Assembly: GCF_964213995.1 (NCBI RefSeq) | Contig: NW_027590645.1 | Coordinates: 124,001 to 188,000, forward strand | Reading direction: 5' to 3' | Length of the DNA stretch: 64,000 nt | Origin: Mustelus asterias | Lineage: Eukaryota | Shown here: one piece after another, positions 5,795 through 59,786 of the stretch | Numbering within the stretch: position 1 is the stretch's first letter | Layout: each line of letters begins with the position of its first letter | Program-made: the position numbers and the translations under genes | Notes under the pieces: model-generated | Seen by the model: only the letters and a program-made list of their open reading frames with translations | The model's database searches: none | What the model was told of the DNA's origin: nothing

Positions 5795-6727
5795 ATGGGA
5801 AAACCATGGAAATGTGGGGATTGTGGAAAGGGATTCAGATCCCCATCTGAGCTGGAAACACATCGACGCAGTCACACTGGGGAGAGGCCATTCACCTGCT
5901 ATCAGTGTGGAAAGAGATTTACTAATTCATCCGACCTGCTTACACACCAGCGAGTTCACACTGGGGAGAGGCCATTCACCTGCTCTGATTGTGGGAAGAA
6001 ATTTAGTATTTCATCCAATCTAGTGAGACACCGTCGAGTTCACTCTGGGGAGAGACCATTCACCTGCTCAGTGTGTGGAAAAAGATGCAGAGATTCATCC
6101 ACCCTGCTGGTACACCAGCAAGTTCACACCAAGGAGAGGCTGTTCACTTGTTCTGAGTGTGGGAAGGGATTCACTCGGTTATCCAGTCTGCAGAGACACC
6201 ATCGCGTTCACACTGGGGAGAGACCATTCACCTGCTCAGAGTGTGGGAAAGGATTCAGAGATTCATCTGACCTGCTGGCACATCAGCGAGTTCACACTGG
6301 GGAGAGGCCGTTCATCTGCTCCGTGTGTGGGAAAGGATTTGGAGATTCCTCCACCCTGCTGACACACCAACGAGTTCACACTGGGGAGAGGCCGTTCACC
6401 TGCTCCAATTGTGGGAGGGAATTCAGTCAGTTAGCCAATCTGCTAAGACACCAGCAAATTCACAGCGGGGACAGGGAGGGGCCTTTCACCTGCTCAGAGT
6501 GTGAGAAGCGATTCAGTGATTTACCTACCCTGCTGACACACCAGCGGGTTCACACCGGGGAGAAGCCATTTACCTGCTCCGTGTGTGGGAAGAGATTCAA
6601 TCGGTCATCCAACCTGCTGACACACCAGAGAGTTCACACTGGGGAGAGACCATTTACCTGCTCTGACTGTGGGAAGGGATTCACTCAGTCATCCCACCTG
6701 CTGAGACACCAGCGAGTTCACAAGTGA
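5795..6727 (+). CDS. C2H2 zinc-finger protein, 11 fingers, no visible effector domain
   Basis: 11 CX2CX12HX3H units with TGERP linkers; accATGg Kozak context; splice acceptor ttttacag| at 5645. Confidence 0.9.
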
Positions 6728-7479
6728 TTACAGTGGTTGTATTCTGCTGTTAATCACATCCGGGACTGAACCATGTTCATTCTGACAGTTGGTGAAGTGG
6801 GAGGGTCAGAGGGTTTCTTGCTGTTGGACTGGCCGGTCTCAGTTTTCATTCCAGTGGCTGATTCTCTTTGAGCGAGAGCACATTTCCACTGAAATGATCC
6901 ACAAAAGCAGATGTCAGATGAGACTGAGATGAGGAAAAAAATCTGAACTCAAAGGGTAGTGAACTTGTGGAATTCTCTACCACAGAAGGCTGTGGAATCC
7001 CAATCACTGAATATGTTCAAGGAAGAGATAGATTTTTTAAAAGATTTTAATGGCTTCAAGCGGTGTGGGGAGAATATGGCATTGAGATTGAGGATCAGCC
7101 ATGATCATATTGAATGGTGGAGCAGACTCGAATGGCCTGCTCCTAGTTTCTATCGAGTACATTAACTTTATCCTGGAAATAAATAGTCTTTTTCCTACCA
7201 CTACAGGTGTCTTGTCTTTTATCCGTCCTTGTTCTGAGGTTAGCTGTACTCTGAACAATCTTTCTCCACTGATTTCTCAGCTGCTCTCACTGCCTGTCCC
7301 ATCAAGAGGCCAGTCCACATTCTGATACTATCTCGGGCCTTCCTTGTACACATTTTCCAGGTGTTTTATCTCACATTGGTCAATAAAAATGCCTTTCACT
7401 GGGATGCTGTGTCACAAGTCTTTGTATTAGCTAAAGATTTGGCAATACTTTGTCTCTGAAAGAAACCCCGTAACAGCCC

Positions 7480-7668
7480 TGAACATCACTGGCCTTTGAA
7501 TGTGGAAGGAGCAACGTAACGTCTATTCTGTCCATGGGATAAGATTTCAGATATAATTGTGACTGGAAAAGCACTGAGACACACACACACCCGAGTGAGA
7601 GTGTTCCAGTGAACTGAGTGTGGAAAGAGCTTTAACCAGTTACACAGCCTGAAAATACATCACACTAT
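7480..7668 (+). pseudogene. Truncated ZNF last-exon leader (dead fingers only)
   Basis: gtgactggaaaagcac…gtgttccagtgaactgagtgtggaaagagctttaaccagttacacagcc matches 17662-17760. Confidence 0.7.
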
Positions 7669-8014
7669 AGGGTAAGTAAATGGGAACGTGGGAATGATAA
7701 AGTATAATTTGTGGAAAAAGGTTATCCGCATTGTTGGGAAGAATAGAAAATCAGCATTTTATTTAAATAGGCTGCAGAATTCCACAGTGGTCTCCTTGAT
7801 GAGGGATATACTCAGCATGACCACTGTGACTGTGTCCTGTCAATGTACAGCTGCATTGCAGGGTCAGGATCATCTCTGAAGGAGCTGCCAGTTAGTCCCT
7901 TTTCCTCAGAGCCTTCACTACAATTATAGAATGATGACAGCAAATGAAGAGTCATTCAGCCCATCGTGTTCACACCCACACCAGCTTTCTGAGAGAGTGA
8001 CACAGCCAGTCCCA

Positions 8015-8378
8015 CTCCCCGGCCTCTCCCTCGTTACTCCCCGGCCTCTCCCTCGGTCACTCCCCGGCCTCTCCCTCGGTCACTGCCCGGCCTCTCCCTC
8101 GGTCACTCCCCGGCCTCTCCTTCGGTCACTCCCCGGCCTCTCCCTCGGTCACTCCCGGCCTCACCCTCGGTCACTCCCGTCCTTTCCCTCGCTCCCTCCC
8201 CGGCCTCTCCCTCGATCCCTCCCTGGCCTCTCCCTCGATCCCTCCCTGGCCTCTCCCTCGATCCCTCCCTGGCCTCTCCCTCCATCCCTCCCTGGCCTCT
8301 CCCTCCATCCCTCCCTGGCCTCTCCCTCGGTCCCTCCCTGGCCTCTCCCTCGGTCCCTCCCTAGCCTCTCCCTCGGCC
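8015..8378. repeat. 23-bp minisatellite, about 16 copies (CTCCCCGGCCTCTCCCTCGGTCA / CTCCCTGGCCTCTCCCTCGATCC)
   Basis: Direct inspection of tandem units with no unique spacers. Confidence 0.9.
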
Positions 8379-8399
8379 AGTGCACAGTCTTTCTCTCGT

Positions 8400-8875: not shown

Positions 8876-10131
8876 TTCTCGGGTATTTGGACATCAGCCT
8901 TTCTCCTGTCAATATACAGCTGCCTTATGGGGTTGTGGTCACATTTGAAAGAGCTGCCCATCAGCCCCACTCCCCTCCCCTTTCCCCAGAGCCCTGTTAA
9001 CTTTACCTTCAACTGGAGATCCAATTCACTTCGGAAAGATGTATCTGAATCTGCTTCCATCCCCTTTCAGGCAGAACGTTCCAGAACAGAATTAATTGAG
9101 AAATGAATGCCCCCAGTGGATTTTTCCCAATTATTTGATGCGACATATTTAATTGTTGATCTTCTGTTAAATACATTTCCAGAGCAGATTTAAGGGAAAA
9201 TGTTCATGACATCTTGGAGATGAACCACACGAAATGCTGTCTGTTTGAAACAAAGTTGATTTATTTGATGCATTAAAATATTAAACTCCAGCCACATTAC
9301 AGGAGTTAACATCAGCAAAAAAAAAGTCAGAATTAATATGATTCAATCCTAAATATGATCAACAGCAGCAACAAAAGCAGAATCCAACTCCTCTAGAGAC
9401 TCTGTCTGAGAGTCAGTGCAGACTTGATGGGCTGAATGGCCTCCTTCTGCACTGTAGGGATTCTATGAAAAGTAAACTCAAGATTAAAATAAAGATTCTT
9501 CAGCTAGTCACTAATCAGCCTTTTCCATTTTCCTGAAGTCATCTTATAATTATTTATCTCCTAGATTTGATGAATTAAACATTATCTGCAATTGTATGAT
9601 AAATGATCAGTTTTATACAAATTAATGAATCATGTCTTACTTTATAGTTGGATAATGCAGTGACCAGAACTGTGCTCAGTATTCTAGCTGTGTTCTAACT
9701 CGTCTCTAACGTAATCTCCCTGCTCTTATATTCCAGGCCTCAGACAGGAAAGTGTCCCAAATGCCTCCTTGACCATCTGATCTACATGTGCAGCCATCTT
9801 CAGGGATCAGTGGATATGCACTCCAAAGTCCTTCTGTTCCTCTATAATTCTCAACATCATCCCATGTTCATTCCCTTGTCTTGTTTACCCTCCCAAATTC
9901 AATCTCTCATTGATCCAGATTGAATTCTACTTGCTATTTTTGTGTTGACTCACCCCCCAGTCCATTAATATCTTCCTGCTGTCCACAGCTTTATTCCTCA
10001 TTGTCAACCATGGGAGCTACTTTTGTATCAGATGCAAACTTAGTAATAATTTTCCACACAGTTGAGCCGAAATTATTGACACATACCAGAAAACTGTGGA
10101 CCACCACTGGAAACAGGCATCTTGGCATCAT

Positions 10132-11280
10132 TCAGTCCTGGGTGTGATTAACAGCAGCAATAACAGCAGAATCCAACCCTTGCTGTTGCCTGTGAACTTG
10201 CTGGTGTTTCAGCAGGTTGTTTGACTGAGCGAATCCCTTCCCACACATGGAGCAGTTGAACGGCCTTTCCCCAGTGTGAACTCGCTGGTGTTTCAGCAGA
10301 TTCTGTTTACTTTTAAATCTCTTCTCACAATCAGAACATTCAAAAGGTCTCTGATCAGTGTGAACAAGTTGGTGTGTAGTCAGGTGGGATGACTGAGTGA
10401 ATCTCTTGCCGCACAGGGGGCAAGTGTAAGGTCTCTCTCCAGTGTGAACTCGCCGGTGTATCAGAAGGTCAGATGCATCAATGAATTCCTGACAACACAC
10501 AGGGCAGGTGAATGGCCTCTCCCCAGTGTGAACTCGATGGTGTCTCAGAAGGTGAGCTAATCGAGTGAATCCCTTCCCACAGAGAGAGCAGATGAATGGT
10601 CTCTCCCCAGTGTGAGTGTGCTGGTGTTTCAGAAGATCCTTTTTGCTTTTAAATGTTTTATCACATTCAGAACAATTGATAGGTCTCTGATCAGTGTGAA
10701 CAAATCGATGTTTCAGGAGCTGGGATGAACAAGTGAATCCCTTCCCACACACGGAGCAGATGAACGGCCTCTCCCCAGTGTGAGTGCGCTGATGAATCAA
10801 TAAATCCTTTTTACTTTTAAAGTTCTTCTCACAGTCAGAACATTGAAATGGTCTCTGATCAGTGTGAACACTTTGGTGTGTCAGGAGGTGGGATGACTGA
10901 GTGAATCCATTCCCACACACGGAGCAGATGAAAGGCCTCTCCCCAGTGTGAGTGCGTTGGTGAATCAACAAATCCTTTCTGCTTTTAAAGCTCTTCCCAC
11001 ACTCACAACATTTAAACGGTCTCTGATCAGAGTGAACCTGGTGGTGAGTCCGGAGGTTTGATAAAGCATTAAATCCCTTTCCACATTGAAGACAGGTGAA
11101 TGGCCTCTCACCAGTATGGACATGCTGGTGTGTGTAGAGGCTGGATGACTGAGTGAATCCCTTCCCACACACAGAGCAGGTGAATGGTCTCTCCCCAGTG
11201 TGAATACGTCGATGGGTTTCCAATTCAGATGGGTAATTGAATCCCGTCCCACAGTCCGCACATTTCCACGGTTTCTCCAT
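10132..11280 (-). CDS. C2H2 zinc-finger protein, 13 fingers, with a C-terminal extension through the paralogous stop position
   Basis: 13 intact fingers; alternating TGERP/TDQRP linkers; acceptor ttttccag| at ~11750. Confidence 0.9.
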
Positions 11281-11281
11281 G

Positions 11282-11406
11282 ATTATTGACAGGCTATCGG
11301 GTGTAGGCGGGATGCAGATTTGAGCTCACTATCAGATCAGCCATGATGTTATTAAATGGTGGAACTGGCCCGTGGGGCCGAATGGCCTATTGCTGCTCCT
11401 TGTTCA
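11282..11406 (+). mobile_element. ~125-bp LINE (CR1-type) 3'-end fragment with a CATG target-site duplication
   Basis: gatcagccatgat…ggccgaatggccta…gctcct tail; CATG at 11278-11281 and 11407-11410; the empty site is visible in the paralog at 51010-51045. Confidence 0.75.
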
Positions 11407-12957
11407 CATGGTGCAGGTGTCCTCCTGTCTCTCCAGGTTATTTAATCAGTTGAAACCAGGTCCACACAAAGAACACGAGTACGGTGTCTACCTGATGTAA
11501 ATGTGCTATTTCTTTTCACGCTGTGTGACTGGTTAAAGCTCCGTTCCAGCTGACTGTGGAAAAATAACTGAGATGTCTGTGTCTCGGGGCTTTTCCAGTC
11601 ACACTGATGTTGAATAATTTCCCAAAGACAAAATAGGCAAACGTTTCTCCTTCCACATTCATAGGCCTTTGATATTCAGATCCTGAAGAATCATGTGACA
11701 CTGTCAGATCCTGAGACGTTTGGTTTGAATCGCCAGTCTGCAGATATTCTGGAAAAGGAGTTTACATTGAATTACTTTGAATACACAAGACATAAACAAG
11801 CCATTCAGTTTTACTCTTTATACTTGACACATCTTCTCCTGTCCCATATTCCTCATCTCAGCCTTTCAATTGATTTTTCTATTTATTTTTCTCTCGTGTG
11901 CTTCTCTCATTTCCTTTTGAAACAATCTCAGCACTTGCCTCAACTCATTTCGATGGTGATTCTAAACCTGTGAGTGAAGAAATTTGTCCTTATTGCCTTC
12001 TTGGATTTATTAGTAACTATCTTGTATTTATGACTCTTTGTTTATTGATCGTTCCTTCTTTTAGACTCTGTCACAAGTGGAACATTCTCTCCACATTTCC
12101 CCTGTCCAAGCCACGAATAATTTTAAAGACTTTTATCAGGTCACTGCTCTACAGGAAAAAACTTCAATCCATTTAATCTTTCCTGAAAGCTGTAATCTCT
12201 GTTTACAAAAATCATCACAGTCAATGCAGAATAGAAATCACAGACAGACAAACATTTCTCTTGGGGTTGTGTGAAATTCATCGACTTGTAACCGTGTGTA
12301 AAAGCAGTTTTCAAACATCTATCAGTGTCAGTCCACAATAGAAACGCTGAACAGACAATTTTCTTTCCTCCACTCCCAGTTTTCTCCCTCCCTCTCCTCT
12401 GTCTGGGTTCAGTTCTCCAGCTCCTGTTTGCAGACTGACAATAAAACCAACGGGTCTTATTGGCGTGTTGGGGCCTCCAGCGGGTGTTTGTGAATCCTCC
12501 CCGCCCATCTCCCAGGGTTTCCTTCCTTCCCAGAGATCAGAGTCCTCATTGATTTGAGGCCAAAGTGTAACCTCTTATTTATTGTCCCCATCCTCTGATG
12601 TGAACCATCCTCCAGTGGCTGAGCCAGGATGGGGCCGTTAACCTGGGCCTGTTCCCGGGAGGGAGGGAGGGAGGGAGAAGCCCCGCAGCTGCAAACCAGG
12701 GAGCTGACAATGATTCTGAAAGGTTTGCGGATCCACAAAGTGTTTCCAAATCCCCCCTAATGTCCAGCTGCCAGCTCAGTGCTCCCCGGGCCTGGCCCCA
12801 CAGTAAAGTGGGGGCCTGAGGCCTAGGCCAGAAGTTGGTGCTGTTTCCAGTGCAGCCGTGGTTTCCATTCCCACCCTGTGCTCACAATCTCCTCCCGAAC
12901 CCTCCCCAAAACCATGATTGACACTGAGCATGCTCAGAGCGTGCACCCACACCACCT

Positions 12958-13083: not shown

Positions 13084-13084
13084 A

Positions 13085-16660: not shown

Positions 16661-16668
16661 TCTCGGGG

Positions 16669-16973
16669 CCAGGGTGGCACAGTGGGTTTGCACTGCTGCT
16701 TCACAGCGCCAGGGACCCGGGTTCAACTCCCAGCCTGGGTCACTGTCTGTGTGGAGTCTGCACATTCTCCCCGTGTCTGCGTGGGTTTCCTCCGGGTGCT
16801 CCGGTTTCCTCCCACAGTCTGAAAGACGTGCTGGTTAGGGTGCATTGGCCGTGCTAAATTCTCCCTCAGTGTTACCCGAACAGGCGCCGGAGTGTGGCAA
16901 CTAGGGGATTCTCACATCAACTTCATTGTAGTGTTAATGTAAGCCTACTTGCGACACTAATAATTAAACTTTA
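16669..16973 (+). mobile_element. HE1/V-SINE-like tRNA SINE, tail type B
   Basis: tRNA-like A/B-box head, central gggtttcctccgggtgctccggtttcctcccacagtc domain, tail …aacttcattg(c)agtgttaatgtaagcctacttg…aataa. Confidence 0.85.
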
Positions 16974-17860
16974 ATCCCTCAATTTGCAAGGCAAAATCCT
17001 CAGACGTTGGGCAAAACCAAATGGATAACCCAATTCTTGATATTTAATTGAGGTTAATTAGTCAGCAGGAAGAGAACCAGAAAGCAGCATGGGCCCTGAC
17101 ACTGATACCATGTTTAACTTAGTTCGAGAGGGAGGTTTGGAGAAACCCCCTTCACAATTTCTCATCAAATCTCTAAACAGTCAGTTCTGGACACAAAGTT
17201 AACATCTGCTATTCTGACTGATCAGGTCAGGATGATTCAGATTAATGTTTTCTCACGTGTTATGAATGAATTGAATCATCAAAAACACTATCTCTGGTTG
17301 TATGAATTTTTTAAAAGGATACTGAAATGATTATCTGTCAATTTATTTGGATTTCAGTTCAGGGAGGAGGGAGAGTGTGTGGGATGGGGATCTGCAACTT
17401 TAGGGGTTCGAGAGGAAAAAGTTCCAGAGAAACTAGAATAGTCTGTTGAGAATTTCTATTCTGGACTGTCAGTGATTACTTTTATTGATGGTTTTTACAG
17501 CTATTAGAAGTTGAGGATTGCAGACGAGAATCTCAAGTCAAACATCACATCAAGGTCTGACAGAATCACTCGATTCATAGGACCTGGATATCATCGTACT
17601 TGGAAAGTGGAAGGAGAAATGTTTGTTTGTTCTGTCTGTGGGAAAAGATTTCGAACATCAGTGTGACTGGAAAAGCACCGAGACACACACACACCCGAGT
17701 CAGAGTGTTCCAGTGAACTGACTGTGGAAAGAGCTTTAACCAGTTACACAGCCTGAAAAAACACCACCATTCACAGTGAGGAGAAACTGTACATGTGTTG
17801 TGTGTGTGGACGAGGCTTCAACTGATCATCAACCTGGAGAGACATGATGACACCGACACC

Positions 17861-18534
<674 letters not shown>

Positions 18535-23742: not shown

Positions 23743-23920
23743 TCTCAGAGGGTTATTGTAGATTAGAGATTGGGAGGGACAGGCCATGGAGGGACTTGAA
23801 AACAAGGATGCAAATGTTAAAATCAATGCGTTATCTGATGTGGACCCGGTGTAGTTCAGTGAGCACAGGATGTGATGGTGAACAGCACACGGGCAGCAGA
23901 GTTTTGTATAATCACAAATG

Positions 23921-25401: not shown

Positions 25402-26294
25402 TTACACATGAAGTTGCTGGTGTCTCAGCAGGTAGGATGACCGAGTGAATCCTTTTCCACATTCGGAGCAGGTGAATGGTCTTTCCTTGGTGTGAGTGCG
25501 CTGGTGTACAGTGAGTTCAGATGACTGCCTGAACCCAGCCCCACAGCTGGAGCACCTGAACAGTCTCTCGTCAGAGTGAACTCGCTGATGGCCAATCAGA
25601 TCCCAGCGTCTTTTATAACACTTCCCACAGTCCAGACATTGGAAAGGTCTCTCATCAGAGTGAACTCGCTGATGGCACATCAGATCCTCAGAACCTTTAA
25701 AGCCCTTCCCACACTCCTGACATTTAAATGGTCTCTTGTCTGCGTGAACTCGCTGATGTCTCAACATGTTGGACGAATCAGTGAATCCTTTCCCACACTT
25801 GGGGCAGGTGAATGGTTTCTCCAAAGCGTGAATTCGCTGGTGCTTCAACAGGTTGGATAAATCATTGAATCCTTTCCCACACATAGTGTAGCTGAATGGC
25901 CTCTCCCCAGTGTGAACTCGCCGGTGTCTCAGCAGGCTGGATAAATCACTGAATCCCTTCCCACACTTCGAACAAGTGAAAGGTTTCTTCCCCAGTGTGA
26001 GTACGTTGATAAGTTTCCAGCTGAGATGGGTAACAAAATGACTCCTCACAATCCCTACGTTTCCATGGTTTCTTAGTGTGAACACGTTTATGTTGCGACA
26101 AGCCTGAGGATCGACTGAAGCCTCGTCCACACACAGGACAGGTGTACGGTTTCTCCCCACTCTGAACGGTGCTTTTTCCTTCCACGTTCAATACTCGATG
26201 ATATTCAGTTACAATAACTTGGACAACTTTGTCAGATCCTGATGTGATGTTTGGTTTCTTGTTTCCCAAATACAAAACTTCCCCTTTTAAAACC
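25402..26294 (-). pseudogene. ZNF pseudogene, second subfamily (~9 fingers), 1-bp insertion at ~25988
   Basis: Two overlapping ORFs (25946..26350 and 25402..26160) join at HTG/EKP; C>R, H>Y and C>Y losses; acceptor ttttatag| at 26295. Confidence 0.8.
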
Positions 26295-36695: not shown

Positions 36696-37280
36696 TCACT
36701 TGTGAACTCGCTGGTGTGTCCGCATGTTCGATAACTGAGTGAATCCCTTCCCACAATCAGAGCAGGTGAACGGCCTCTCCCCAGTGTGAACTCGCTGGTG
36801 TCTCCTCAGGTCAGATGAATCACTGAATCGCTTCCTGCATTGGGAGCAGATGAACGGCCTCAGCCCAGCATGAACTCGCTCATGTTTCCTGAGGTCAGAT
36901 GAATGACTGAATTGCTTCTCACATTCAGAACAGGAGAATGGCTTCTCCCCAGTGTGAACTCGTTTGTGCGTCCGCAGGATGGATGAATTACTGAATTCCT
37001 TCCCACACACACAGCAAGTGAATGGTCGCTCCCCAGTGTGAATTCGCTGGTGTGACTGCAGGTGGGATAACTGGGTGAATCCCTTCCCACAATTAGGACA
37101 GACAAATGGTCTCTCTCCAGTGTGAATTCGCTGGTGTGTCTGTAAAATGGATGAATTACTGAATCCCTTCCCACAAACAGGGCAGATGAATGGCCTTTCA
37201 CCTGTGTGACAACGTCGATGAATTTCCAGGTGACTCGGGCAACGAAAACGTTTCCCACAATCCCCACAACACATTTCCAT
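36696..37280 (-). CDS. C2H2 zinc-finger ORF, 7 fingers; canonical ATG (37291) out of frame, second ATG in frame; may be a pseudogene
   Basis: 7 intact fingers; 5-bp insertion after KPWKC; last-exon acceptor changed to ttttacaa at ~37651. Confidence 0.6.
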   Translation of the reverse strand: MEMCCGDCGKRFRCPSHLEIHRRCHTGERPFICPVCGKGFSNSSILQTHQRIHTGERPFVCPNCGKGFTQLSHLQSHQRIHTGERPFTCCVCGKEFSNSSILRTHKRVHTGEKPFSCSECEKQFSHSSDLRKHERVHAGLRPFICSQCRKRFSDSSDLRRHQRVHTGERPFTCSDCGKGFTQLSNMRTHQRVHK

Positions 37281-38339
37281 GGTTTCTCCATGGTGTCAAT
37301 GTCCTTGTGTCTCTCCAGGTTTGACAATCAGTTGACGCCTCGTTCACACATACAACCAGTGTGCAGTCTCTCCCTGCTGTGAATGGTGTGATGTTGCTTC
37401 AGCCAATGTAACTGATTAACGATCCTTTCACAGTCACTGCATTGTACACTCTCACTCAGGTATCATTCTCTGTACTGTTCCAGTCACACTGATATTAAAA
37501 TCTCTCACAGCAGACAAAAAGGACAAACATTTCTCCTTTTAGATTCAAGATTGATGATATTCAGCTCCTGATGAATGGAGTGACTCTGTCAGATCCTGAT
37601 GTGCTATCTGCTTTGAGAGTTCTGTCTGCGATATCTCCTCCCCTAATATATTGTAAAAGAGTTTACAAACGTAATCAGTGACAGTACAGGATAGAAATTC
37701 AGAACAGAATTTTAATTGCTAAGGAACATTCATTCCTCTCTCATTTATCGAAGGCTGTAAATATCTGGACCACACACTCTCTATTCACATTCTGCTGTAT
37801 TTAATACATACCCAATAACACTATGATGTATAATTATACAGTACTCTATTACATGATTAGAGATACATAGGGCTGTGAGGGAGTATTTTATTTCGACAGC
37901 TAGTGTTGCTGACCTGAAACTCTCTGCCTACCAGCTTGATGGAAGCAGAGAAGGTGAATAATTTCAGAATGAAATTGGAGGGGCACTTGAAGGAAATAAC
38001 CTGTAGGGGGAATGGGGATGTCGAGAAGGAATGGGAGTGGCTGGATTGTCCTACAGAGTGTTAGCATAGGCTCAAGTTACTGAATGGACACCTTGTGTCG
38101 TAATGACGCTGACTGGAAATGCATATTGTAGCTACAGTAGGATAATACAAGATTAGAAATAATTAATGTATTTTATTACAAATAAGATATCTAATCTGTA
38201 CCATATTACAAGACTAGACATATCTCTGTCCTATCTTAATTTACCGTCCCCTTAAATGTCAGCCATATCTGGGGAAACCATCTCTTGAATTGTGACCATT
38301 AGGAAAGAGACCATCCTTTTACCCAGATAAATAAATGTG

Positions 38340-39160
38340 TCAGACTGAGGGAGCGAAAGAATGTCAATGTCATGAAGAGAGAGAGAGCTGGGCCAACCTT
38401 GCCAGAATCTGCACCCTCCCTGGATTCACTTCGTTTCCCTTCAGTTGCTGCAAATCCCCAATTTCCCCCAGAATGAGAAAAGAAATGGAAAGGGGGAGAA
38501 AAGAAAGTGTTTTACTCACAGATGGTGGAGACAGGAAGAAGTTTCAGTCTGTGTGCACCTCAATCTGAGTATCACAAAGCCCGATTGGCTGAAGGACCAG
38601 AGTCCTTCCGGTCCTCCAACTCTTCCCATTGGTCAACACCTCAGCACGAAGGTCAGAAGGCGGGCTGCCCCGCTCATGCGCAGTGTCCCCTCTCCACTGG
38701 ACATGCGCAGTCCCGGGCCAGGGGGAGGGGGCGATCACCGAGAGGCTTCTCGCTGTGGCCGGGGCCGCCAGCCGGTTGCCTAGAAACCTTGGCTGGAGGA
38801 GGTGCAGGGGGAGGGGAACAATGGGTGGGGGCGGGGCTTCCATGTCTGTGCGCCCGGGCCTGCGCACTGGAACTCCAGGACGTCATTGTGGAAGAGACTG
38901 ATTCCTATTGGCTGATTCGCGGCAGGGCTCCATTGTGACGTCACAATGCGGAAGTTGGCCAATAAGCTTCAGAGTGAAACTTCCGCCTCTGGGCCACATC
39001 TGGGAGGAAATCAATGTTTCCCCTTTCCATTTCTTTTCTCATTCTGGGGGAAATTAGGGACTTGCAGCAACTGAAGGGAAAGGAAGTGAATCCAGGGAGG
39101 CTGCAGACTCTGAAAAGGTTGGCCCGGGTTTCTCTCTCTCTTAAAGACATTGACATCCTT
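38340..39160. promoter_or_regulatory. Type-B bidirectional CpG promoter flanked by inverted homologous first exons
   Basis: CCAAT boxes, catgcgca x2, GC box, palindrome CATTGTGACGTCACAATG + CGGAAGT; 38355-38500 is the reverse complement of 39015-39160; donors aag|gttggc at 38398 (-) and 39117 (+). Confidence 0.75.
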
Positions 39161-39476
39161 TGCAATGTTCCACAGGAACTAGAATTGGCTGATTTGAATT
39201 TCTATCTTGTTCTGACAGCGATGACTTTTGTAAATTCTTTTTACAGGATATTAGAAGGAGTTGATTTGCTGATAGAAATTTCAAGATCTAACACTCACTC
39301 AATTCATGGGAGCTGAATGTCATCGGTTTGAATCTGGAAGAAGAAACGTTTCTCTGCTTGAGTTGGGTGAACCATTGGTGTGAACAGAAAAGCATCGAGG
39401 CCCGTGCAACCCGAGTGACGGTGTTCCAGTGCACGTATTGTGAAAACTGCAGGAGAGACAGAAAGACACTCAGATC

Positions 39477-40427
39477 ATGGAAAAACCATGGAAATGTGGG
39501 GACTGTGAAAAGTCATTCCGTTCCCCATCGGTGTTGGAAATTCATCGACGCAGTCACACCGGGGAGAGGCCATTCACCTGCTCCAATTGTGGGAAAGGAT
39601 TCACTCGGTTATCGATCTTGCTGACACACCAGCGAGTTCACACCGGGGAGAAGCCATTCAGCTGCTCTGATTGTGGGAAGGGATTCACTCAATCATCGCA
39701 CTTGCTGATACACCAGCGAGTTCACAATGGAGAGAGGCCATTCACTTGCCCCGTGTGTGAGAAGGGATTCAGCGATTCATCCACACTGCAGACACACCAG
39801 AGAGTTCATACTGGGGAGAGGCCATTTATCTGCTCCATGTGTGGTAAAGGATTTGCTCAGTCATCCAACCTGTATTCACACCAGCGAGTTCACACCGGAG
39901 AGAGGCTGTTTCCCTGCTCTGTGTGCGGGAAGGGATTCAGTAACTCCGCCAACCTGCTGAGACACCAGCAACTTCATACTGGGGAGGCTTCCTTCACCTG
40001 CTTTGAGTGTGGTAAAGGATTCAGTGATTCATCCAACCTGTTTTCGCACCAGCGAACTCACACTGGGGAGAGGCCATTCACCTGCTTTCTGTGTGGAAAG
40101 GGATTTAGCCAGGCATCCAGCCTGCAGACACACCAGCGCGTCCACACCGGGGAGAGGCCGTTCACCTGCTCAGTGTGCGGCAAGGGATTCAGTGATTCAT
40201 CCAACCTGATTTCACACCAGCGAGTTCACACTGGAGTGAGGCCATTTAACTGCTTTGTGTGTCAGAAGGGATTCAGTCGATTATCTAACCTGCTGACGCA
40301 CCAGCGACTTCACACTGGGGAGAGACCGTTTGCCTGCAATGAATGTGGAAAGGGATTCACACGATCATCCCACCTGCTGAGACACCAGCAAGTTCATAAG
40401 CGATTACAAACATTGGATTCTGCTTAA
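39477..40427 (+). CDS. C2H2 zinc-finger protein, 11 fingers
   Basis: 11 intact fingers; acceptor ttttacag| at 39246; ends [10 protein letters not shown]. Confidence 0.9.
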
Positions 40428-43960: not shown

Positions 43961-43970
43961 TTGTTGTTTG

Positions 43971-50091: not shown

Positions 50092-51018
50092 TCACTTGTG
50101 AACTCGCTGGTGTTTCACCAAGTTTGCTGACCGAGTGAATCCCTTCCCACACACAGAGCAGGTGACCAGCCTCTGCCCAGTGTGAACTCGCTGATGTACC
50201 CGTAGGTTGCATGACTGAGCGAATCCCTTCCCACAGTCAGAGCAGCTGAACGGTCTCTCCCCAGTGTGAATGCGCTGGTGGGTAATCAGTTCATGAGAGC
50301 TTTTGAAGCCACTCCCACAGTCAGAACATTTAAAGGGTCTCTCCTGGGTGTGAGTGATGTTGTGTCTGCGGAGGCTGGATAACTGAGTGAATCCTTTCGC
50401 ACACACCGAGCAGGTGAATGGTCTCTCCCTGGTGTGAACTCGCTGATGGTTCAGCAATGCTGCAGATATTCTAAATCTCTTTGAGCAGTGAGGGCAGCTG
50501 AACGGCCTCTCCTCAGTGTGAATGCGCTGGTGGACGATCAGTTTCTGAGAGCTTTTGAAGCCATTCCCACAGTCACAGCATTTAAAGGGTCTCTCATTGG
50601 TATGAATGACTCGGTGTGTCTTCAGGCTGGATGACTGAGTGAATCCCTTCCCACACACAGAGCAGGTGAACGGTCTCTCCCCAGTGTGAACTCGCTGGTG
50701 TATCTGCAGGTTGGATGAAGTTCTAAATTTCTTTGTGCAGTGAGAGCAGCTGAACGGTCTCTCCTCAGTGTGAATGCGCTGGTGGGACACCAGATCCTGA
50801 GAGCTTTTAAAACCACTCCCACAGTCACAGCATTTAAATGGTCTCTCATTGGTGTGAGTGAGATTGTGTTTCTGCAGGCTGGATAACTGAGTGAATCCCT
50901 TCCCACACACAGAGCAGGTGAATGGTCTCTCCCCAGTGTGACTGCGTTGATGAATTTCCAGCTGAGATGGGGATATGAATCCCTTCCCACAGTCTCCACA
51001 TTTCCACGGTTTCTCCAT
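50092..51018 (-). CDS. C2H2 zinc-finger protein, 11 fingers with three-finger periodicity
   Basis: accATGgag at 51018; 11 intact fingers; acceptor cttacag| at ~51369. Confidence 0.88.
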
Positions 51019-52351
51019 GGTGCGGGTGTCCTTGTGACTCTCCAGGTTAAACAATCAGTTAAATCTCACACAGAACACGGGTACAATCTCTCCCCGCTGT
51101 GAAAGCTGCGATGTATTTTCAGGCTGTGTAACTGGTTAAAGCTCTTTCCACACTCAGTGCACTGGAACACTCTCACTCGGGTGTGTGTATCTCAATGCAT
51201 TTCTAGTCACAGCGATGTTTACAATCTTTTGAAGCCAAGAGGCCAAACAAGCATTTCTCCTGCTAGATTCAAAGGCCGATGATATTCAGGTCCCAAGAAG
51301 TCGAGTCACTCTGTCAGATCTCGATGTGATGTTGGAGATTTCTGTCTGATTTCTCCTTGTCTAATATCCTGTAAGTCAATTTAGAAAAAAAACATTGCAA
51401 TTCAGAATATGATCGAAATTCAAATCTACATTTCTAGTTTATGGAGCATTCTTTAAAGACACAGTCATGGAGCATTAAACTTGCCCAGCAGGGCCTCCCG
51501 TATCAGCACACAGGCAGCTGCTTTGTGAGACTGCCAGCAGTACAGACAAGTCAGAGATAAGGGTGTCCTCAGAAGTGGGATTCATTGTGAAAGCTCAGGG
51601 ACGGTTGATAAGATGGAGCAATTCTGTGATTCTAATGAACATTCTTTCCTCTCCCATTCCCCAAAAGCCGTGAATCTCCATCCCACACACTCTCCCTCCA
51701 TTCTCACTCTGCTGTATCTAATATTCACCCTCCCAATTCTCCTGAAGGTGCTGATTGAGGCTGATTGACAGATCCATGCTCACTGCTTCCTGTCCAGCAC
51801 AGAGATCAGAACAAATAGGAGCTGCAGTCAGCATTCGGCCCATCGAGTCTGCTCAACCATTCATTGAGATTATTGGTTGATCTACCTCTGCATTATTTTC
51901 CCCACACTGTCCCCCATATCCATCGATATCTTCAATATCTAGAAACCTATCAACCCCTCTCTTGAAAATTCTTGATGACTGAGGCTCTGTAGTCCTCTGG
52001 GGTAGAGAATCCAAAACATCACCACATCCTTGAGTGAAGAAATCCTTCCTCATCTGAGCTTTCTCTCCATTTTCCAGCCTGTTTCCAATAATTATTGACT
52101 CCCTTGTCATTCAAACACTGTCTAACTCATCCTTGAATATATTCAATCCCTCCACTGGTCCCTATGGAAGAGAAATCTAGACACTAACAATTCTCTGAGA
52201 GAAGAGATTGTTGGAAATATATAATATAGCTGCAGTCCAAAATTACACAGCCAGATATAATAAGTGTATTTTATTACAGAGCTATAAATAATATATCTAA
52301 TCTGTACCATATAACAACAGGGGAGCGGATAGCCTTGTAGTATTAATCACC

Positions 52352-53900
52352 AGTCCCCTGGGCCTGATGAAATGTATCCTAGGATTCTGTGGGAGGCAAG
52401 GGATGAGATTGCAGAGCCTTTGGCGTTGATCTTTGGGTCCTCGCTGTCCACGGGGATGGTGCCAGAGGACTGGAGAATGGCGAATGTTGTTCCTCTGTTT
52501 AAGAAAGGGAATAGAAATGACCCTGGTAATTATAGACCGGTTAGTCTTACTTCGGTGGTTGGTAAATTGATGGAAAGGGTCCTTAGGGATGGGATTTACG
52601 ACCATTTAGAAAGATGCGGATTAATCCGAGATAGTCAGCACGGATTCGTGAAGGGCAAGTCGTGCCTCACAAATTTGATAGAATTTTTTGAGGAGGTAAC
52701 TAAGTGTGTTGATGAAGGTAGGGCAGTTGATGTCATATACATGGATTTTAGTAAGGCGTTTGATAAGGTCCCCCATGGTCGGCTTATGATGAAAGTAAGG
52801 AGGTGTGGGATAGAGGGAAAGTTGGCCGATTGGATAGGTAACTGGCTGTCTGACCGAAGACAGAGGGTGGTGGTGGATGGAAAATTTTCGGATTGGAGGC
52901 AGGTTGCTAGCGGTGTGCCGCAGGGATCAGTGCTTGGTCCTCTGCTCTTTGTGATTTTTATTAATGACTTAGAGGAGGGGGCTGAAGGGTGGATCAGTAA
53001 ATTTGCTGATGACACCAAGATTGGTGGAGTAGTGGATGAGGTGGACAGCTGTTGTAGGCTGCAAAGAGACATAGATAGGATGCAAAGCTGGGCTGAAAAA
53101 TGGCAAATGGAGTTTAACCCTGTTAAATGTGAGGTGATTCATTTTGGTAGGACAAATTTAAATGTGGATTACAGGGTCAAAGGTAGGGTTCTGAAGACTG
53201 TGGAGGAACAGAGAGATCTTGGGGTCCATATCCACAGATCTCTAAAGGTTGCCACTCAAGTGGATAGAGCTGTGAAGAAGGCCTATAGTGTGTTAGCTTT
53301 TATTAACAGGGGGTTGGAGTTTAAGAGCCGTGGGGTTATGCTGCAACTGCACAGGACCTTGGTGAGACCACATTTGGAATATTGTGTGCAGTTCTGGTCA
53401 CCTCACTATAAGAAGGATGTGGAAGCGCTGGAAAGAGTGCAGAGGAGATTTACCAGGATGCTGCCTGGTTTGGAGGGTAGGTCATATGAGGAAAGGTTGA
53501 GGGAGCTAGGGCTGTTCTCTCTGGAGCGGAGGAGGCGGAGGGGAGACTTAATAGAGGTGTATAAAATGATGAAGGGGATAGATAGAGTGAACGTTCAAAG
53601 ACTATTTCCTCGGGTGGATGGAGCTATTACAAGGGGGCATAACTATAGGGTTCGTGGTGGGAGATACAGGACGGATATCAGAGGTAGGTTCTTCACGCAG
53701 AGAGTGGTTGGGGTGTGGAATGGACTGCCTGCAGTGATAGTGGAGTCAGACACTTTAGGAACATTTAAGCGGTTATTGGATAGGCACATGGAGCACACCA
53801 GGATGATAGGGAGTGGGATAGCTTGATCTTGGTTTCAGATAAAGCTCGGCACAACATCGTGGGCCGAAGGGCCTGTTCTGTGCTGTACTGTTCTATGTTC
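52352..53900 (+). mobile_element. 5'-truncated young CR1 (same family as 29073-33343), TSD TATTAATC, nested in a SINE inside a ZNF intron
   Basis: Nearly identical to 31795-33341; TATTAATC at 52341-52348 and 53901-53908; open 484-aa RT ORF 52372..53826. Confidence 0.95.
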
Positions 53901-54689
53901 TATTAATCCAGAAACTTAGCTGATGTTCTGGGGACCCGGGTTTGAATCCTGCCACGGCAGATGGTGGAATTTGAATTTGAAAACAAAATCTAGAATTAAG
54001 AATCTACTGATGACCATGAAACCATTGTCGATTGACCAAAAAACCCGTCTGGTTCATTAATGTGCTTTAGGGAAGGAAATCTGCCGTCCTTACCCAGTCT
54101 GGCCTACATGTGACTCCAGAGCCACAGCAATGTGGTTGACTCTCACCCAGCTTCTGAAATGGCCGAGCGAGCCATTCAGTTCAAGGGCAATTGGGGATGG
54201 GCAATAAATGCTGGCCCAGCCGGCAATGCCCGTGTCCCAAGGATGAATAAAAAACAACATCAGACACGTCTCTGTCCGATATTAGTTTACTGTCCCCTTT
54301 AATATATTTCAGAAATTAGATGGGCACATGAAGGAAATAAACTTGCAGGGGAAAGGGAATATAGAAAGGGAATGGGACTGACTGGATTGTTCTACAGAGA
54401 GTCGGCATGGATTCGAGTTACTGAATGGACTCCTTCTGCGCTGTAATGACTCAATGAGTGAAAATATATAACATAGCTTCAGTGCTACATTACAAAACAA
54501 GAAATAATAATAAACGTACTTTGTTACAGAACCATAAATATTATACCAAATCTACTATATAACAACACAAGGCATATCTCTGTCCTATATTAATTTATTG
54601 TCCTTTTAAATGTCAGCCATCACCAGGGGAAACCAGCCCTTTAATTGTGAACATTAGGAAAGGGACCTTTTAGCCAGACAAATCAATGT

Positions 54690-55500
54690 GTCAAGCTGAG
54701 GGAGCAAAGGATGTCAATGTCTTTAAGAGAAAGAGAAACCTGGGCCAACCTTTCCAGAGTCTGCACCCTCCCTGGAGTCACTCCGTTTCCCTTCAGTTGC
54801 TGCAAGTCAAGGCAGGAATGAGCAGCTGAACAAGCTCATTGTCCACTTCCGCATTCAGACAATGGGCGAGCTCTGATTGGCTGGAGGACCAGAACATCCG
54901 TTCCTCCAACTTTCCATTGGCCAACACCTCAGCAGCAGGTCAAAAGGTTGGCTCGCCCCGCACATGCGCATCTTCCCCTCTCCCTTGGACATGCGCAGTC
55001 CCGGGCCGAGGGAGGGGGCGATCATGACGCGGCTTCTCGCTCTGGCCGGAGCCGTCAGCCGGTTGATTGGAAACCGTGGCTGGAAGAGGTGAAGGGGGAG
55101 GGGGAACAATGGGTGGGGGCGGGGCTCCCGGGTCCGCGCGCCCGGGCCTGAGCACTGGAACCCGGAGACGTCATCGCGGAGCAGAATGATTCCTATTGGC
55201 TGATTTAGGCAGAGCTCTCTTATGGACGTCACAATGCGGAAGTTGTCCAAACTCCCTCTTCTGGGCAACATCTGGGAGGAAATCAATGTTTCCCCCTTTC
55301 CATTTCTTTTCTCATTCTGGGGGAAATTGGGGACTTGCAGCAACTGAAGGGAAAGGAAGTGAATCCAGGGAGGCTGCAGACTCTGGAAAGGTTACAGATG
55401 AAGACCGGATTCAGGAACAGGACTAGGCCCAGGTATATTTTTGTTTCTCTCTCAAAGACATTGACATCTTTTAGTTCCCTCAGTTTATCTGGCTAATAGG
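54690..55500. promoter_or_regulatory. Second type-B bidirectional promoter with inverted first exons
   Basis: Colinear with 38340-39160; left arm partly replaced at ~54808-54870. Confidence 0.75.
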
Positions 55501-56939: not shown

Positions 56940-57240
56940 GTAAAGTAAAGTTTATTTATTTGTCACAAGTAGGCTTACATTAACAATGCAATGATGTTAC
57001 TGTGAAAATCCACTAGTCGCCACACTCCGGCGCCTGTTCAGGTACACTGAGGGAGAATTTAGCATGACCAGTTCACCTAACCTGCACATCTTTGGACTGT
57101 GGGAGGAAACCGGAGCACCCGGAGGAAACCCACGCAGAACCGGGGAGAATGTGCAAACTCCACACAGACAGTGACCCAAGCCAGGAATTGAACCCGAGTC
57201 TCTGGCGCTGTGAAGCAGCAGTGCTAACTGCAGTGCCACT
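56940..57240 (-). mobile_element. HE1-like SINE, tail type B, nested in a decayed CR1 (~56760-57785, +)
   Basis: SINE motifs; flanking CR1 translation LLQLYKVLARPYLEDCEQFWSP. Confidence 0.8.
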
Positions 57241-57969
57241 GTGGTTGGAGTATATGAGTAGGGAAGTCTTGCTACAACTGTACAAGGTACTGGCGAGACC
57301 ATATCTGGAGGACTGTGAGCAGTTTTGGTCTCCTTATTTCAGGAAAAATATTATTTCATTGGAGGCAGTTCACAGTAGATTCACTTGGATTATCCCCGTT
57401 ATGGAGGGATTGTTTTATGAGGAAAGTTTAAACAGGTTGGGCCTCTCCTCATTGGAATTTAGAAGAATGAGAGGTGATCTCATTGAAGCATATTGGATTC
57501 TTAAGGGACTTGAGAGGGTAAATGCTGAGCGGATGTTTCCTCTCATGGGAGAGTCTGGGACCAGAGGGCACAGTCTCAGAATAAAAGGTGCCAATTTAAG
57601 ACTGAGATCAGGAGCAATTTCTTCTCCCAGAGGGTTGAGAGTCTTTGCAAGTCCTTGCCACAGAGAGCTGTGGGGGCAAAGCCCTTGTGTATATTTTTGA
57701 TCAATAAGGAAATCAAGGGTTACGGGAAAAGGGCAAGAAAGTGGACATGAGGAATGTCAGATCAGCCATGATCCTATTGAATGGGTGACATTCAATCCCT
57801 TCCCTGCAGGACATCAGTGAATCAATTGGGTTTTTAATGACACTCCAGAATTTTCATGGTCACTTTTACCTAGTGCCGGCCCCAGAAATGACCAGATTCA
57901 TTCCGCTCAATTTCACAACCTGCCTTTGTGTTTTTGTGGGTTCTCTCTCACATTTGTTTTCTTTTAAAT

Positions 57970-58630
57970 TCAGTGTCACAGAGTTTTAGAAGAGGAGGAT
58001 TTGCAGTCAGGAATCTTTGAACAAACATCACATCAGGAGTTGACGGAGCTGCCCAGTTAACGGTAACTTGATTATCATTTAAACATTGAAGGAAAAAGCA
58101 TTGTTCACAGTAGATGAAACTGTTCTCTGTGTGGACGCAGCTTCAGTTGATCATCTGGCCTCAGGAGCTACAAATATAAACATCCTGGGGAGGAACCATG
58201 GAAGAGTGAGGACAGTGATGAGGGATTCAGTTACCTGTCTGAGCTGGAAGCTCATCGTGCACCGGGGAGAGGCCGTTCACCGGCTCTGTGTATTGGACTG
58301 ATTTCACTCCATCAGCCAACCTGTTGTCTCACTGACATATTCACACTGGGGGGAGATTGTTCAAACGCTGCAGAGATGGAAAGGGATTCATTCAGTCATC
58401 CCACCATATGACACACAAACGTGTTCACACTTGAGTGATTTTGTTAATTGCCCAGATTACGAGAAGAGCTGTAAAAGTTCCAGGGAAGTGATATCCTATC
58501 AACTTGTCCACACTGACGAGAGACCGTTCAGGTGCTCTCACTTTAGGACTGAGTTCAGGCGATTATCTCACCTCACAGTGCACCAGCAGATTCACACTGG
58601 GGAGAGGTTATTCCTCTGCTCTGACTCAGT
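57970..58630 (+). pseudogene. Heavily decayed ZNF pseudogene, paralog of 25402-26294
   Basis: Shares the upstream intron (acaacctgcctttgtgtttttgtgggttctctctcacattt) and the finger remnants EPWKSEDSDEGFSYLSELEAHR and [11 protein letters not shown]. Confidence 0.8.
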
Positions 58631-58883
58631 TGAAAAAAATTACAAGTAAATCACTATTTGCTATAGACCAAAGAAAGATACTTTATTAGAAGAGTAAGGG
58701 TCACAAGGTAAAACAAGCCAAGTTCCAGAATATTAAACATCCAGTCCAGTTACAGAGATTGTAAACATCAACAGAAACAAACCCAAACTATCAGAATGAA
58801 CAGAGTTCAGGCTTGGATGTCATTAACAGCAGCAACAGCAGCAGAATCCAATCCCAATAATCACTGCTGAACTCGCCGGTGTG

Positions 58884-59786
58884 TCAGCCAATTAGATGAT
58901 CGATTGTATCCTTCTCACATGTGGAACAGGAGTCTGGTCTCTCCCCAGTGTGAACTCGCTGGTGTGTCCGCAGGTTGGATGAATTACTGAATCCTTTCCC
59001 ACACTGAGAGCAGGTGAATGGTCTCTCTCCAGTGTGAACCCGCTGATGTATCTGCAGGTGGGATGACTGAGTGAATGTTTTCCCACAATAGGAGCAGGTG
59101 AATGGTCTCTCCCCAGTGTGCAATCGTCGGTGTCTCTGCAGATTTGATGCATAAGGAAAATGCTTCCCACACTCAGAGCAGATGAACAGCCTCTCCCCAG
59201 TGTGAACTCGCTGATGTATCAGCAGATAGGATGAATCAGTGAATCCCTTCCCACACTCGGAGCAGCTGAACAGTCTCTCCCTGGTGTGAATTCGCTGGTG
59301 TCTCTGCAGGTTGGATGAATTACTGAATCCTTTCCCACACTCAGGGCAGATGAATGGCCTCTCCCCAGTGTGAACTCGCTCGTGTGTCTGCAGGTGGGAT
59401 AACTGAGTGAATCCCTTCCCACACTCTGAACACGTGAACCATTTCTCCCCGGTGTGACCTCGCTGGTGCATCAGCAAGTTGGATGATTCACTGAATCCCT
59501 TCCCACAATCGGAGCAGGTGAATGGCTTCTCCCCGCTGTGAACTCGCTTGTGTGTCTCCAGGTGGGATGAACTTGTGAATCCTTTCCCGCACTCGGGGCA
59601 GGTGAATGGCCACTCCCCTGTGTGAACTCGTTTGTGTGTCTGCAGGGAGGATGAATGAGCAAATCCCTTCCCACACTCCAAACAAATGAACGGCCTCTCC
59701 CCAGTGTGATTACATCGATGAGTTTCCAGTTGGTGTGAGAAATTGAATCCTTTACCACAGTCTCCACATTTCCACGGCTTCTCCAT
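58884..59786 (-). CDS. C2H2 zinc-finger protein, 10 intact fingers plus a frameshifted 11th
   Basis: accATGgag at 59786 (in-frame ATG also at 59801); acceptor gttacag| at ~60081; promoter lies beyond the window. Confidence 0.85.

What the first reader, a model, noticed from the sequence alone, without database searches (positions are those of the whole stretch)
5795..59786. Cluster of effector-less poly-ZF genes with a distinctive conserved first finger (possible KRAB-independent TE-control system)
Seen: all nine loci carry a finger of the form (E/K)[19 protein letters not shown](T/I)HxRxH (W before the first Cys, Pro at helix +1, Glu at +5; the 59786 copy lacks the Pro). It is the first coded finger in seven loci and the second in the other subfamily, and it never appears in internal positions, where helix residues vary freely. 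The last finger is also stereotyped (GKGFTxSSxLLRHQxVHK). No KRAB, SCAN or BTB sequence is visible, and stops upstream of the ATG would block fusion to upstream exons. About a third of the loci are dead. Established: KRAB-ZFP clusters are a sarcopterygian/tetrapod feature, and birth-and-death ZNF clusters track TE load in other vertebrates. Inference: the PW/PSxLE finger may be a protein-interaction module that recruits a co-repressor while the variable fingers recognise TEs.
Basis: partly seen in the sequence, partly recalled or inferred. Interest (0 to 1): 0.8.

Follow-up and report, generated by a model that had tools for sequence, protein, structure and literature searches.

The report
Shark zinc-finger cluster lacking repressor domain
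This is a cluster of shark genes for many-fingered DNA-binding proteins that carry no known silencing domain and all begin with the same unusual, ancient finger, which makes them a testable lead for how sharks and rays might keep their jumping genes in check, although the role of that finger is unproven.

Summary
Mostly confirmed, with corrections. The window is shark DNA (inferred) with nine C2H2 poly-zinc-finger loci: five intact, four broken. No KRAB, SCAN, BTB or other effector was found. The Trp/Pro+1/Glu+5 finger is real. It is one strongly supported finger class, under purifying selection, and sits first or second in arrays of seven named shark and ray genera. None of 2,582 fingers in one non-shark control set has the Trp.

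In seven loci it follows a spliced 5' leader made of a decayed acidic spacer and up to three dead fingers. The ATG sits where the linker glycine was. The key stop is shared with sawshark and horn shark models. A frozen shark-ray gene pair (32 of 32 DNA-contact residues identical) carries the same helix as ordinary finger 2, so inheritance from a founder plus position explains much of the pattern. Finger 1 is not measurably more constrained than finger 2 or the last finger, and the last finger is not a class of its own.

Co-repressor recruitment and transposon targeting are plausible but untested. Ten literature searches found no description of the family.

The parts
5795..6727 (+). Locus A: intact 310-aa ORF, 11 fingers, Trp finger first (type I)
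5646..5794 (+). Locus A 5' leader: splice acceptor at 5646, then decayed spacer and finger relic with large deletions and an in-frame stop
10132..11280 (-). Locus B: intact 382-aa ORF, 13 fingers, two-finger internal repeat (type I)
11281..11748 (-). Locus B leader relic with a 129-nt insertion that duplicates the ATG and leaves an upstream ATG-TGA
17501..18531 (+). Locus C: broken type I copy (ACG in place of ATG at 17861, frameshift near 18259); fullest relic of three dead fingers at 17501-17860
25402..26294 (-). Locus D: broken type II copy; Trp finger is second, has lost two zinc ligands, and is followed by a frameshift
36696..37650 (-). Locus E: probably dead type I copy (acceptor AG changed to AA, 5-nt insertion in the Trp finger; a second ATG is in frame with the array)
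38300..39120 (.). Bidirectional GC-rich promoter and short 5' exon region between head-to-head loci E and F (CRE-, ETS- and CCAAT-like motifs; donor at 38520-, 72-nt intron, acceptor at 38447-)
   Evidence: motif names recalled; transcription not shown
39247..39476 (+). Locus F leader relic
39477..40427 (+). Locus F: intact 316-aa ORF, 11 fingers (type I)
50092..51018 (-). Locus G: intact 308-aa ORF, 11 fingers, three-finger internal repeat (type I)
51019..51368 (-). Locus G leader relic with one dead finger still canonical in another frame
54640..55400 (.). Second copy (84% identical) of the bidirectional promoter module, between loci G and H
57982..58700 (+). Locus H: heavily decayed type II copy; end approximate
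58884..59786 (-). Locus I: intact 300-aa ORF, 10 fingers plus a degenerate tail; first finger lacks Pro+1 (type I)
59787..60080 (-). Locus I leader relic

Best explanation
An elasmobranch, tandemly duplicating birth-and-death family of C2H2 poly-zinc-finger DNA-binding proteins with no effector domain.

Gene layout. Each gene is transcribed from a GC-rich, often bidirectional promoter, and short non-coding exons splice onto one large exon (inferred). The front of that exon is a dead, formerly coding stretch: an acidic spacer plus up to three fingers (shown). Translation starts at a recruited ATG. In type I it sits in the old linker just before the Trp finger, in strong Kozak context; in type II it sits one finger earlier (position shown, use inferred).

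The Trp finger. It is an old finger type inherited from a founder array older than the shark-ray split. It stays at the front because internal duplication and homogenisation act downstream of it, and purifying selection keeps it folded (shown). It most likely works as a constant end anchor of the array rather than as the part that picks targets.

Function. The downstream fingers duplicate and vary at their base-reading residues, so each gene recognises a different sequence, probably often retrotransposon-derived. The proteins then act by occupying those sites or by recruiting partners in trans (inferred, untested).
For: - Five intact ORFs contain fingers only, and no effector was found.
- A shared acceptor lies 149-468 nt before the ATG position. 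The leader has frameshifting indels in 7 of 7 type I loci and diverges at p=0.29, close to four-fold sites at 0.33-0.39.
- The first relic stop is present in 7 of 7 type I loci. Three database models from Pristiophorus and Heterodontus end at that same stop.
- In 32 named elasmobranch proteins the finger is rank 1 in 21 cases, rank 2 in 5 and never deeper.
- Finger 1 pN/pS is 0.32, 95% interval 0.17-0.56.
- A Stegostoma-Mobula pair is 89% identical over 230 aa with 32 of 32 contact residues identical, and carries the YPSELE helix as finger 2. It is the nearest of that pair's fingers for 6 of 7 window first fingers.
- Two- and three-finger internal repeats occur in loci B and G.
- Shark genomes carry 703-3,586 ZNF ORFs and abundant retroelements (PMC10547256 supplement rows).
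Against: - There are no RNA data, so exon structure and start use are inferred.
- No DNA target was tested.
- Internal-finger dN/dS at contact positions (0.80) compares non-orthologous fingers and shows relaxed or diversifying change, not positive selection.
- Scoring did not match the dead relic finger to finger 1 of the conserved pair, so that link rests on motif likeness only, and the direction (founder or domesticated member) is unknown.
- The Trp is fixed in most expanded members but is Tyr in the conserved pair. Passive inheritance does not explain that well.
- The four-fold site counts are small.
Confidence: 0.45

Rival explanations
1. The Trp finger is a built-in effector: a protein-binding zinc finger (co-repressor docking or dimerisation) that replaces KRAB or FiNZ, while the other fingers read transposons.
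For: The fixed residues Trp, Gly-Asp, Pro+1 and Glu+5 lie off the canonical base-reading positions -1, 2, 3, 6 (positions per PMC4592553 passage), and Asp and Glu are acidic. Position +3 swings among E, Q, K, L. The finger was kept when the fingers before it died in shark type I genes, and the preceding finger is degenerate in two stingray models. It is never deeper than rank 2. KRAB families are reported lost or absent in cartilaginous fishes (PMC8455134 passage).
Against: Base-reading positions -1, +3 and +6 are also less variable than in other fingers. The same helix sits as an ordinary linked finger 2 in a gene with frozen contact residues. Constraint intervals overlap those of finger 2 and the last finger. 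3 of 11 database type II copies and both window type II copies lost a zinc ligand, and one type II model lacks the finger. The model folds as a canonical finger with the Pro opening the helix, where Pro is commonly tolerated (recalled).
Confidence: 0.28
2. Mostly neutral turnover: a duplicating cassette whose first finger looks special only through ancestry and position, with selection on the fold alone and no common family function such as transposon control.
For: 4 of 9 loci are broken and there are four further fragments. The whole cassette, including the dead leader, the promoter and the 3' flank, is copied along. Finger 1 is not significantly more constrained than its neighbours. Tyr at -1 is kept in 23 of 26 database copies but in only 1 of 6 window copies.
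Against: Five ORFs of 300-382 codons stay open while adjacent leaders are shredded by indels. pN/pS is below 1 in all finger positions tested. The signature persists in sharks and rays.
Confidence: 0.2
3. The genes do have an effector, encoded by an undiscovered upstream exon that splices in frame at a cryptic acceptor just before the ATG, or through the spacer in type II genes.
For: The spacer is open in frame from the acceptor in some type II database models (P0243, P0249, P0028, P0009). Effector exons are often missed in poly-ZF annotation (PMC2604467 passage). AG dinucleotides exist in the open codons before the ATG.
Against: Those AGs mostly lack a pyrimidine tract (0.20-0.65, against 0.50-0.70 at the shared acceptor). 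The N-termini of the 15 named elasmobranch spacer hits share no domain by inspection. The spacer is frameshifted ahead of the Met in two otherwise open type II models (P0065, P0258). The strong Kozak ATG is kept in all 5 intact genes.
Confidence: 0.07

Closest known systems
KRAB zinc-finger (KZFP) clusters of sarcopterygians
   Same: Tandem clusters, one large finger exon, TGEKP-type linkers, variable contact residues, many pseudogenes.
   Different: No KRAB or SCAN. The protein begins at a finger, and the region where a spacer and effector would join is a dead leader.
FiNZ-ZNF family of cyprinid fish (PMC10547256; bioRxiv 10.1101/2022.11.29.518450)
   Same: A lineage-specific, KRAB-independent poly-ZNF expansion with a family-constant acidic N-terminal element, shown there to repress young transposons.
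   Different: FiNZ is a 28-aa non-finger domain on its own coding exon. Here the constant element is itself a C2H2 finger, and the acidic spacer is non-coding in all type I loci.
Frozen shark-ray eight-finger gene (XP_059497701.1 Stegostoma; XP_062916153.1 Mobula)
   Same: Finger 2 has the YPSELE helix, and the FKS-type fingers after TDERPF-type linkers also occur in window loci B, D and G.
   Different: It has Tyr instead of Trp and fixed contact residues across shark and ray, while the window arrays vary.
Protein-binding C2H2 fingers (Ikaros dimerisation fingers, FOG fingers; recalled)
   Same: They set the precedent that a finger can be an interaction module.
   Different: No PDB sequence hit singled out such a finger; the top hits were generic DNA-binding arrays.
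RefSeq/UniRef 'zinc finger protein 239-like / 850-like / 271-like' models of sharks and rays
   Same: The same family, already present as automatic gene models in Heterodontus, Scyliorhinus, Pristiophorus, Mustelus, Stegostoma, Cetorhinus and Hemitrygon.
   Different: The names are generic, and many models appear to fuse neighbouring genes or translate the dead leader.

Membership tests
Tandem C2H2 poly-ZF genes | Three or more tandem C2H2 fingers with canonical linkers | tested here: met
   10-13 fingers in each of 5 intact ORFs
Tandem C2H2 poly-ZF genes | Clustered birth and death | tested here: met
   9 loci in 54 kb, 4 broken, 4 fragments, duplicated promoter
KRAB-ZFP | N-terminal KRAB-A box | tested here: not met
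   Own HMM: best window E=0.94 among 2,707 segments, 15 of 15 controls found; none in 47 named elasmobranch proteins
KRAB-ZFP | TRIM28/KAP1 recruitment | not testable with these tools
   Needs biochemistry
SCAN-ZFP | SCAN domain | tested here: not met
   Best window E=0.39, 17 of 17 controls found
BTB-ZF / ZAD-ZF / PRDM9-like | BTB, ZAD or SET domain upstream | tested here: not met
   No such Pfam hit in 262 frames of 60 aa or more; shorter exons and exons outside the window were not covered
FiNZ-ZNF | FiNZ domain on an upstream coding exon | tested here: inconclusive
   No FiNZ profile was at hand; no in-frame route from the shared acceptor in type I loci; the paper calls FiNZ unique to cyprinids
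Transposon-silencing ZNF system | Binding to and repression of transposons | not testable with these tools
   Only the cross-species ZNF-retroelement correlation
Transposon-silencing ZNF system | Positive selection at contact residues among recent paralogues | tested here: inconclusive
   Contact dN/dS 0.80 versus 0.23 off-helix in internal fingers, but the fingers are not orthologous
Protein-interaction C2H2 finger | Conserved non-DNA-reading residues | tested here: inconclusive
   Trp, Gly-Asp, Pro+1 and Glu+5 conserved, but contact positions also constrained; no surface map available
Protein-interaction C2H2 finger | A demonstrated partner | not testable with these tools
   No candidate partner identified

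The most novel reading that the evidence does not exclude
Sharks and rays run a further, independently evolved transposon-silencing zinc-finger system in which the effector is a converted zinc finger. The ancestral N-terminus was discarded, translation was restarted from a linker codon right before the Trp finger, and that finger docks a co-repressor for hundreds to thousands of variable arrays.
Probability: 0.25. Interest if true: 0.8.

Novelty: new variant of a known kind. Interest (0 to 1): 0.52.

Why it matters
Cartilaginous fishes are reported to lack KRAB families (PMC8455134 passage). Yet they carry some of the larger ZNF repertoires listed in the PMC10547256 supplement, for example 3,586 ZNF ORFs beside 242,270 retroelement ORFs in Scyliorhinus canicula. 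How they would use such arrays is open.

This family gives a diagnostic marker (the Trp finger plus the dead leader), a shared translation start that one knock-down reagent could target, and a frozen shark-ray member to serve as reference. It also shows a poly-ZF family whose N-terminus became 5' UTR, and it explains why automatic models of these genes are often fused or truncated.

Tried and rejected
- Self-association of fingers 1-2 of locus G with zinc: verdict 'no answer', score 0.01; it bears on nothing either way.
- Conserved upstream ORF in the leader: rejected. The relic ATG survives in only 1 of 5 intact genes.
- Leader kept as a strongly conserved element: not supported. It diverges near the four-fold rate and carries many indels.
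- Recoding of the shared TGA stops: rejected. The frame is broken by indels on both sides in every copy, and CGA-to-TGA decay explains the stops (inference; locus D has CGA at the second site).
- Last finger as a class: rejected. The group table there lists one change for 'last', but only against the 'first' group; the printed tree scatters them.
- N-terminal stability cap: weakened, since the signature also occurs in second position.
- Searches with the finger profile were swamped by long arrays (best 120 of 594 and of 7,746 hits seen), so the family's range, including chimaeras, is not settled.
- PDB search and Atlas searches gave only generic fingers. Rfam gave one tRNA.
- No eukaryotic genome collection was available.
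- Literature: ten searches found no description of this family. The library lacks most subscription papers, and three supplement files of PMC10547256 were not searched.
Full report
Source. The best-matching relatives are named shark and ray proteins, up to 86% identical over the first 60 residues of locus A for a Scyliorhinus torazame model. The deleted leader of locus A resembles a Scyliorhinus canicula model. The window is therefore shark DNA, probably catshark-like (inference). About 21% of it lies in six LINE-type blocks. These were recognised by eye from endonuclease and reverse-transcriptase motifs; only fragments were confirmed by Pfam.

The observation. A six-frame scan and a looser motif search give nine zinc-finger loci. 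Five are intact ORFs made only of fingers: A 5795-6727+, B 11280-10132-, F 39477-40427+, G 51018-50092- and I 59786-58884-, of 300-382 aa and 10-13 fingers. Four are broken. C has ACG for ATG and a frameshift. D has a ligand-less Trp finger and a frameshift. E has a mutated acceptor and a 5-nt insertion in the finger. H is decayed.

How distinct the finger is. Of 69 non-first canonical fingers, none has the Trp or Pro+1 and one has Glu+5. The seven first fingers form one branch with support 100/100, whereas last fingers are scattered (78 columns, bootstrap not converged). In controls the Trp occurs in 0 of 2,582 fingers of 107 named non-chondrichthyan proteins (four unnamed records and nine Heterodontus models left out) and in 2 of 744 fingers of another 91. 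The pattern is far beyond chance.

No effector. HMMs built from 28 KRAB and 33 SCAN segments recovered all held-out controls (15 of 15, 17 of 17). They found nothing in 2,707 window segments or in 47 named elasmobranch proteins. Pfam found no effector in 262 stop-to-stop frames of 60 aa or more outside the finger exons and the masked LINE blocks. Shorter frames were covered only for KRAB and SCAN.

What lies before the ATG. All loci share a homologous splice-acceptor site (C placed; AG changed to AA in E). In the seven type I loci, 149-468 nt separate it from the ATG position. That stretch is a decayed coding region: an acidic spacer, then up to three dead fingers. Every copy has frameshifting indels. 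The first in-frame TGA is present in 7 of 7, and the second in 5 of 5 copies that keep the region. Pairwise distance is 0.29, against 0.33-0.39 at four-fold sites of fingers 1, 2 and internal fingers (the last finger gave 0.18 on few sites). The ATG occupies the glycine position of the old TGEKP-type linker, in A-x-x-ATG-G context. Only 11-15 open codons precede it in the intact genes, and nearby AGs mostly lack a pyrimidine tract. The Trp finger was therefore once an internal finger. Three database models, two from Pristiophorus and one from Heterodontus, end exactly at the first relic stop, so this arrangement predates the split of those shark lineages. Type II genes lack two of the dead fingers and start at a Met at the end of the spacer in most database copies; both window copies have lost that Met.

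Upstream exons. A GC-rich module at 38.6-39.1 kb sits between head-to-head loci E and F and recurs at 54.9-55.4 kb with 84% identity between G and H. An S. torazame model (XP_072363096.1) joins sequence homologous to the E-side of this module to the same spacer. That supports the exon layout, though I could not see the model's RNA support. A spacer profile searched against 1.84 billion representatives gave 24 hits: 15 named elasmobranch models, 3 named repeat-like chance hits from other groups, 5 without an organism name, and 1 not looked up. The named models share no N-terminal domain by inspection.

Range and constraint. In 32 named elasmobranch proteins, 26 fingers show at least two of the three signature residues. 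They rank first in a block 21 times, second 5 times and never deeper, against 273 other fingers. They come from Mustelus, Pristiophorus, Scyliorhinus, Heterodontus, Stegostoma, Cetorhinus and the stingray Hemitrygon. Because that set was chosen on Trp, Pro and Glu, only the other columns are a fair test. There, Gly 27 of 32, Asp 29 of 32 and Tyr at -1 24 of 32 are also fixed, and -1, +3 and +6 are less variable than in size-matched samples of other fingers. In the window, finger 1 has pN/pS 0.32 (95% interval 0.17-0.56), finger 2 0.49 (0.24-0.93), finger 3 0.47 (0.28-0.75) and the last finger 0.49 (0.26-0.89). Purifying selection is clear; extra constraint on finger 1 is only a trend. Against a strict requirement, 3 of 11 database type II copies and both window type II copies lost a zinc ligand, one type II model has no such finger, and two stingray models begin without it. 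An AlphaFold model of fingers 1-3 of locus F is canonical, mean pLDDT 93.9, with the helix starting at the Pro.

A frozen relative. A zebra shark and a devil ray protein (XP_059497701.1, XP_062916153.1) are 89% identical over 230 aa, with all 32 base-reading residues identical. Their finger 2 carries the YPSELE helix with Tyr in place of Trp and is the nearest match for 6 of 7 window first fingers. Their FKS-type fingers match a second internal class in loci B, D and G. The dead relic finger did not score best against their finger 1. This gene is either the founder or an early domesticated member. Either way, most of the signature predates the shark-ray split and exists in an ordinary, linked second position.

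Mechanism. Shown: effector-less arrays, a dead leader, an old and selected first finger, and internally duplicating variable fingers. Inferred: splicing, use of the start codon, DNA binding, and transposon targets. I rate founder inheritance plus a constant-anchor role at 0.45, a dedicated protein-binding effector finger at 0.28, near-neutral turnover at 0.20 and a hidden effector exon at 0.07.

Literature. I saw passages only of bioRxiv 10.1101/2022.11.29.518450 and PMC10547256. They describe FiNZ-ZNFs and the ZNF-retroelement correlation, and the journal version's main text has no 'shark', 'skate' or 'canicula'. I saw supplement rows of PMC10547256 listing ZNF ORF counts of 703-3,586 in five shark assemblies, 1,223 in a skate and 475 in Callorhinchus (three files not searched). 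I also saw passages of PMC8455134 (KRAB loss in cartilaginous fishes), PMC10380595 (KRAB-ZFPs sarcopterygian), PMC2604467 (effector-less poly-ZF predictions are common and ambiguous) and PMC4592553 (contact positions). Ten searches found no account of this family, its first finger or its leader. The expansion is known as a count and as generic gene models.

Verdict. A real, apparently undescribed variant of a known kind of system, a lineage-specific poly-ZF expansion. Its anatomy is unusual, and it offers a direct route to test how elasmobranchs control transposons. Interest 0.52; 0.8 if finger 1 proves to be an effector (probability 0.25).

Noticed in passing
window 10254-11010 (-), 25638-25722 (-), 50328-50832 (-): A second stereotyped internal finger class (FKS or YKR before the helix, after TDQ/TNE/SDE-type linkers); 9 window fingers on one long branch, matching fingers 5 and 7 of the frozen shark-ray gene. 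A looser pattern fits 46 of 315 database fingers.
   Followed up: partly
window 11281-11410 (-): A 129-nt insertion at the start codon of locus B duplicates the ATG and leaves an upstream ATG-TGA plus another out-of-frame ATG, which may dampen translation.
   Followed up: partly
window 37262-37300 (-): The 5-nt insertion in locus E puts a second strong-context ATG in frame with the array, giving a possible Trp-less protein, but the acceptor is also mutated.
   Followed up: partly
window 5170-5340 (+), 7478-7668 (+), 9277-9387, 19346-19476: Four further family fragments: a last finger with 3' flank, a leader relic cut before the Trp finger, and two 3' flank pieces.
   Followed up: partly
window 6724-6913, 36430-36699, 40402-40667: The 3' flanks of loci A, E and F are 83-85% identical, closer than their leaders, which suggests gene conversion or a conserved 3' UTR element.
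   Followed up: no
window 13401-16280 (+), 29402-33267 (+), 52333-53826 (+): CR1-like LINE blocks with long open frames; 31793-33343 and 52352-53902 are 97.5% identical, so the family is young (family name by eye).
   Followed up: no
window 62296-63999 (-) and 1794-2720 (-): A Penelope-like reverse transcriptase plus endonuclease frame running off the window end, and a Tx1/L1-like C-terminal fragment (zf-RVT hit; family names recalled).
   Followed up: no
window 43887-43961 (+): A single tRNA-Lys(TTT) gene directly upstream of a SINE-like repeat.
   Followed up: no
window 16670-16970, 22712-23026, 23418-23743, 35898-36241, 41325-41625, 42253-42555, 43968-44298, 56943-57243: Eight or more copies of a roughly 300-nt SINE-like repeat, 76-88% identical.
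   Followed up: no
database models P0123, P0143, P0180, P0189, P0217 (Heterodontus), P0121 (Pristiophorus), P0001 (Mustelus): Automatic gene models that appear to fuse neighbouring family members, or join family sequence to a histone H2A or to LINE sequence; annotation of these clusters looks unreliable.
   Followed up: partly
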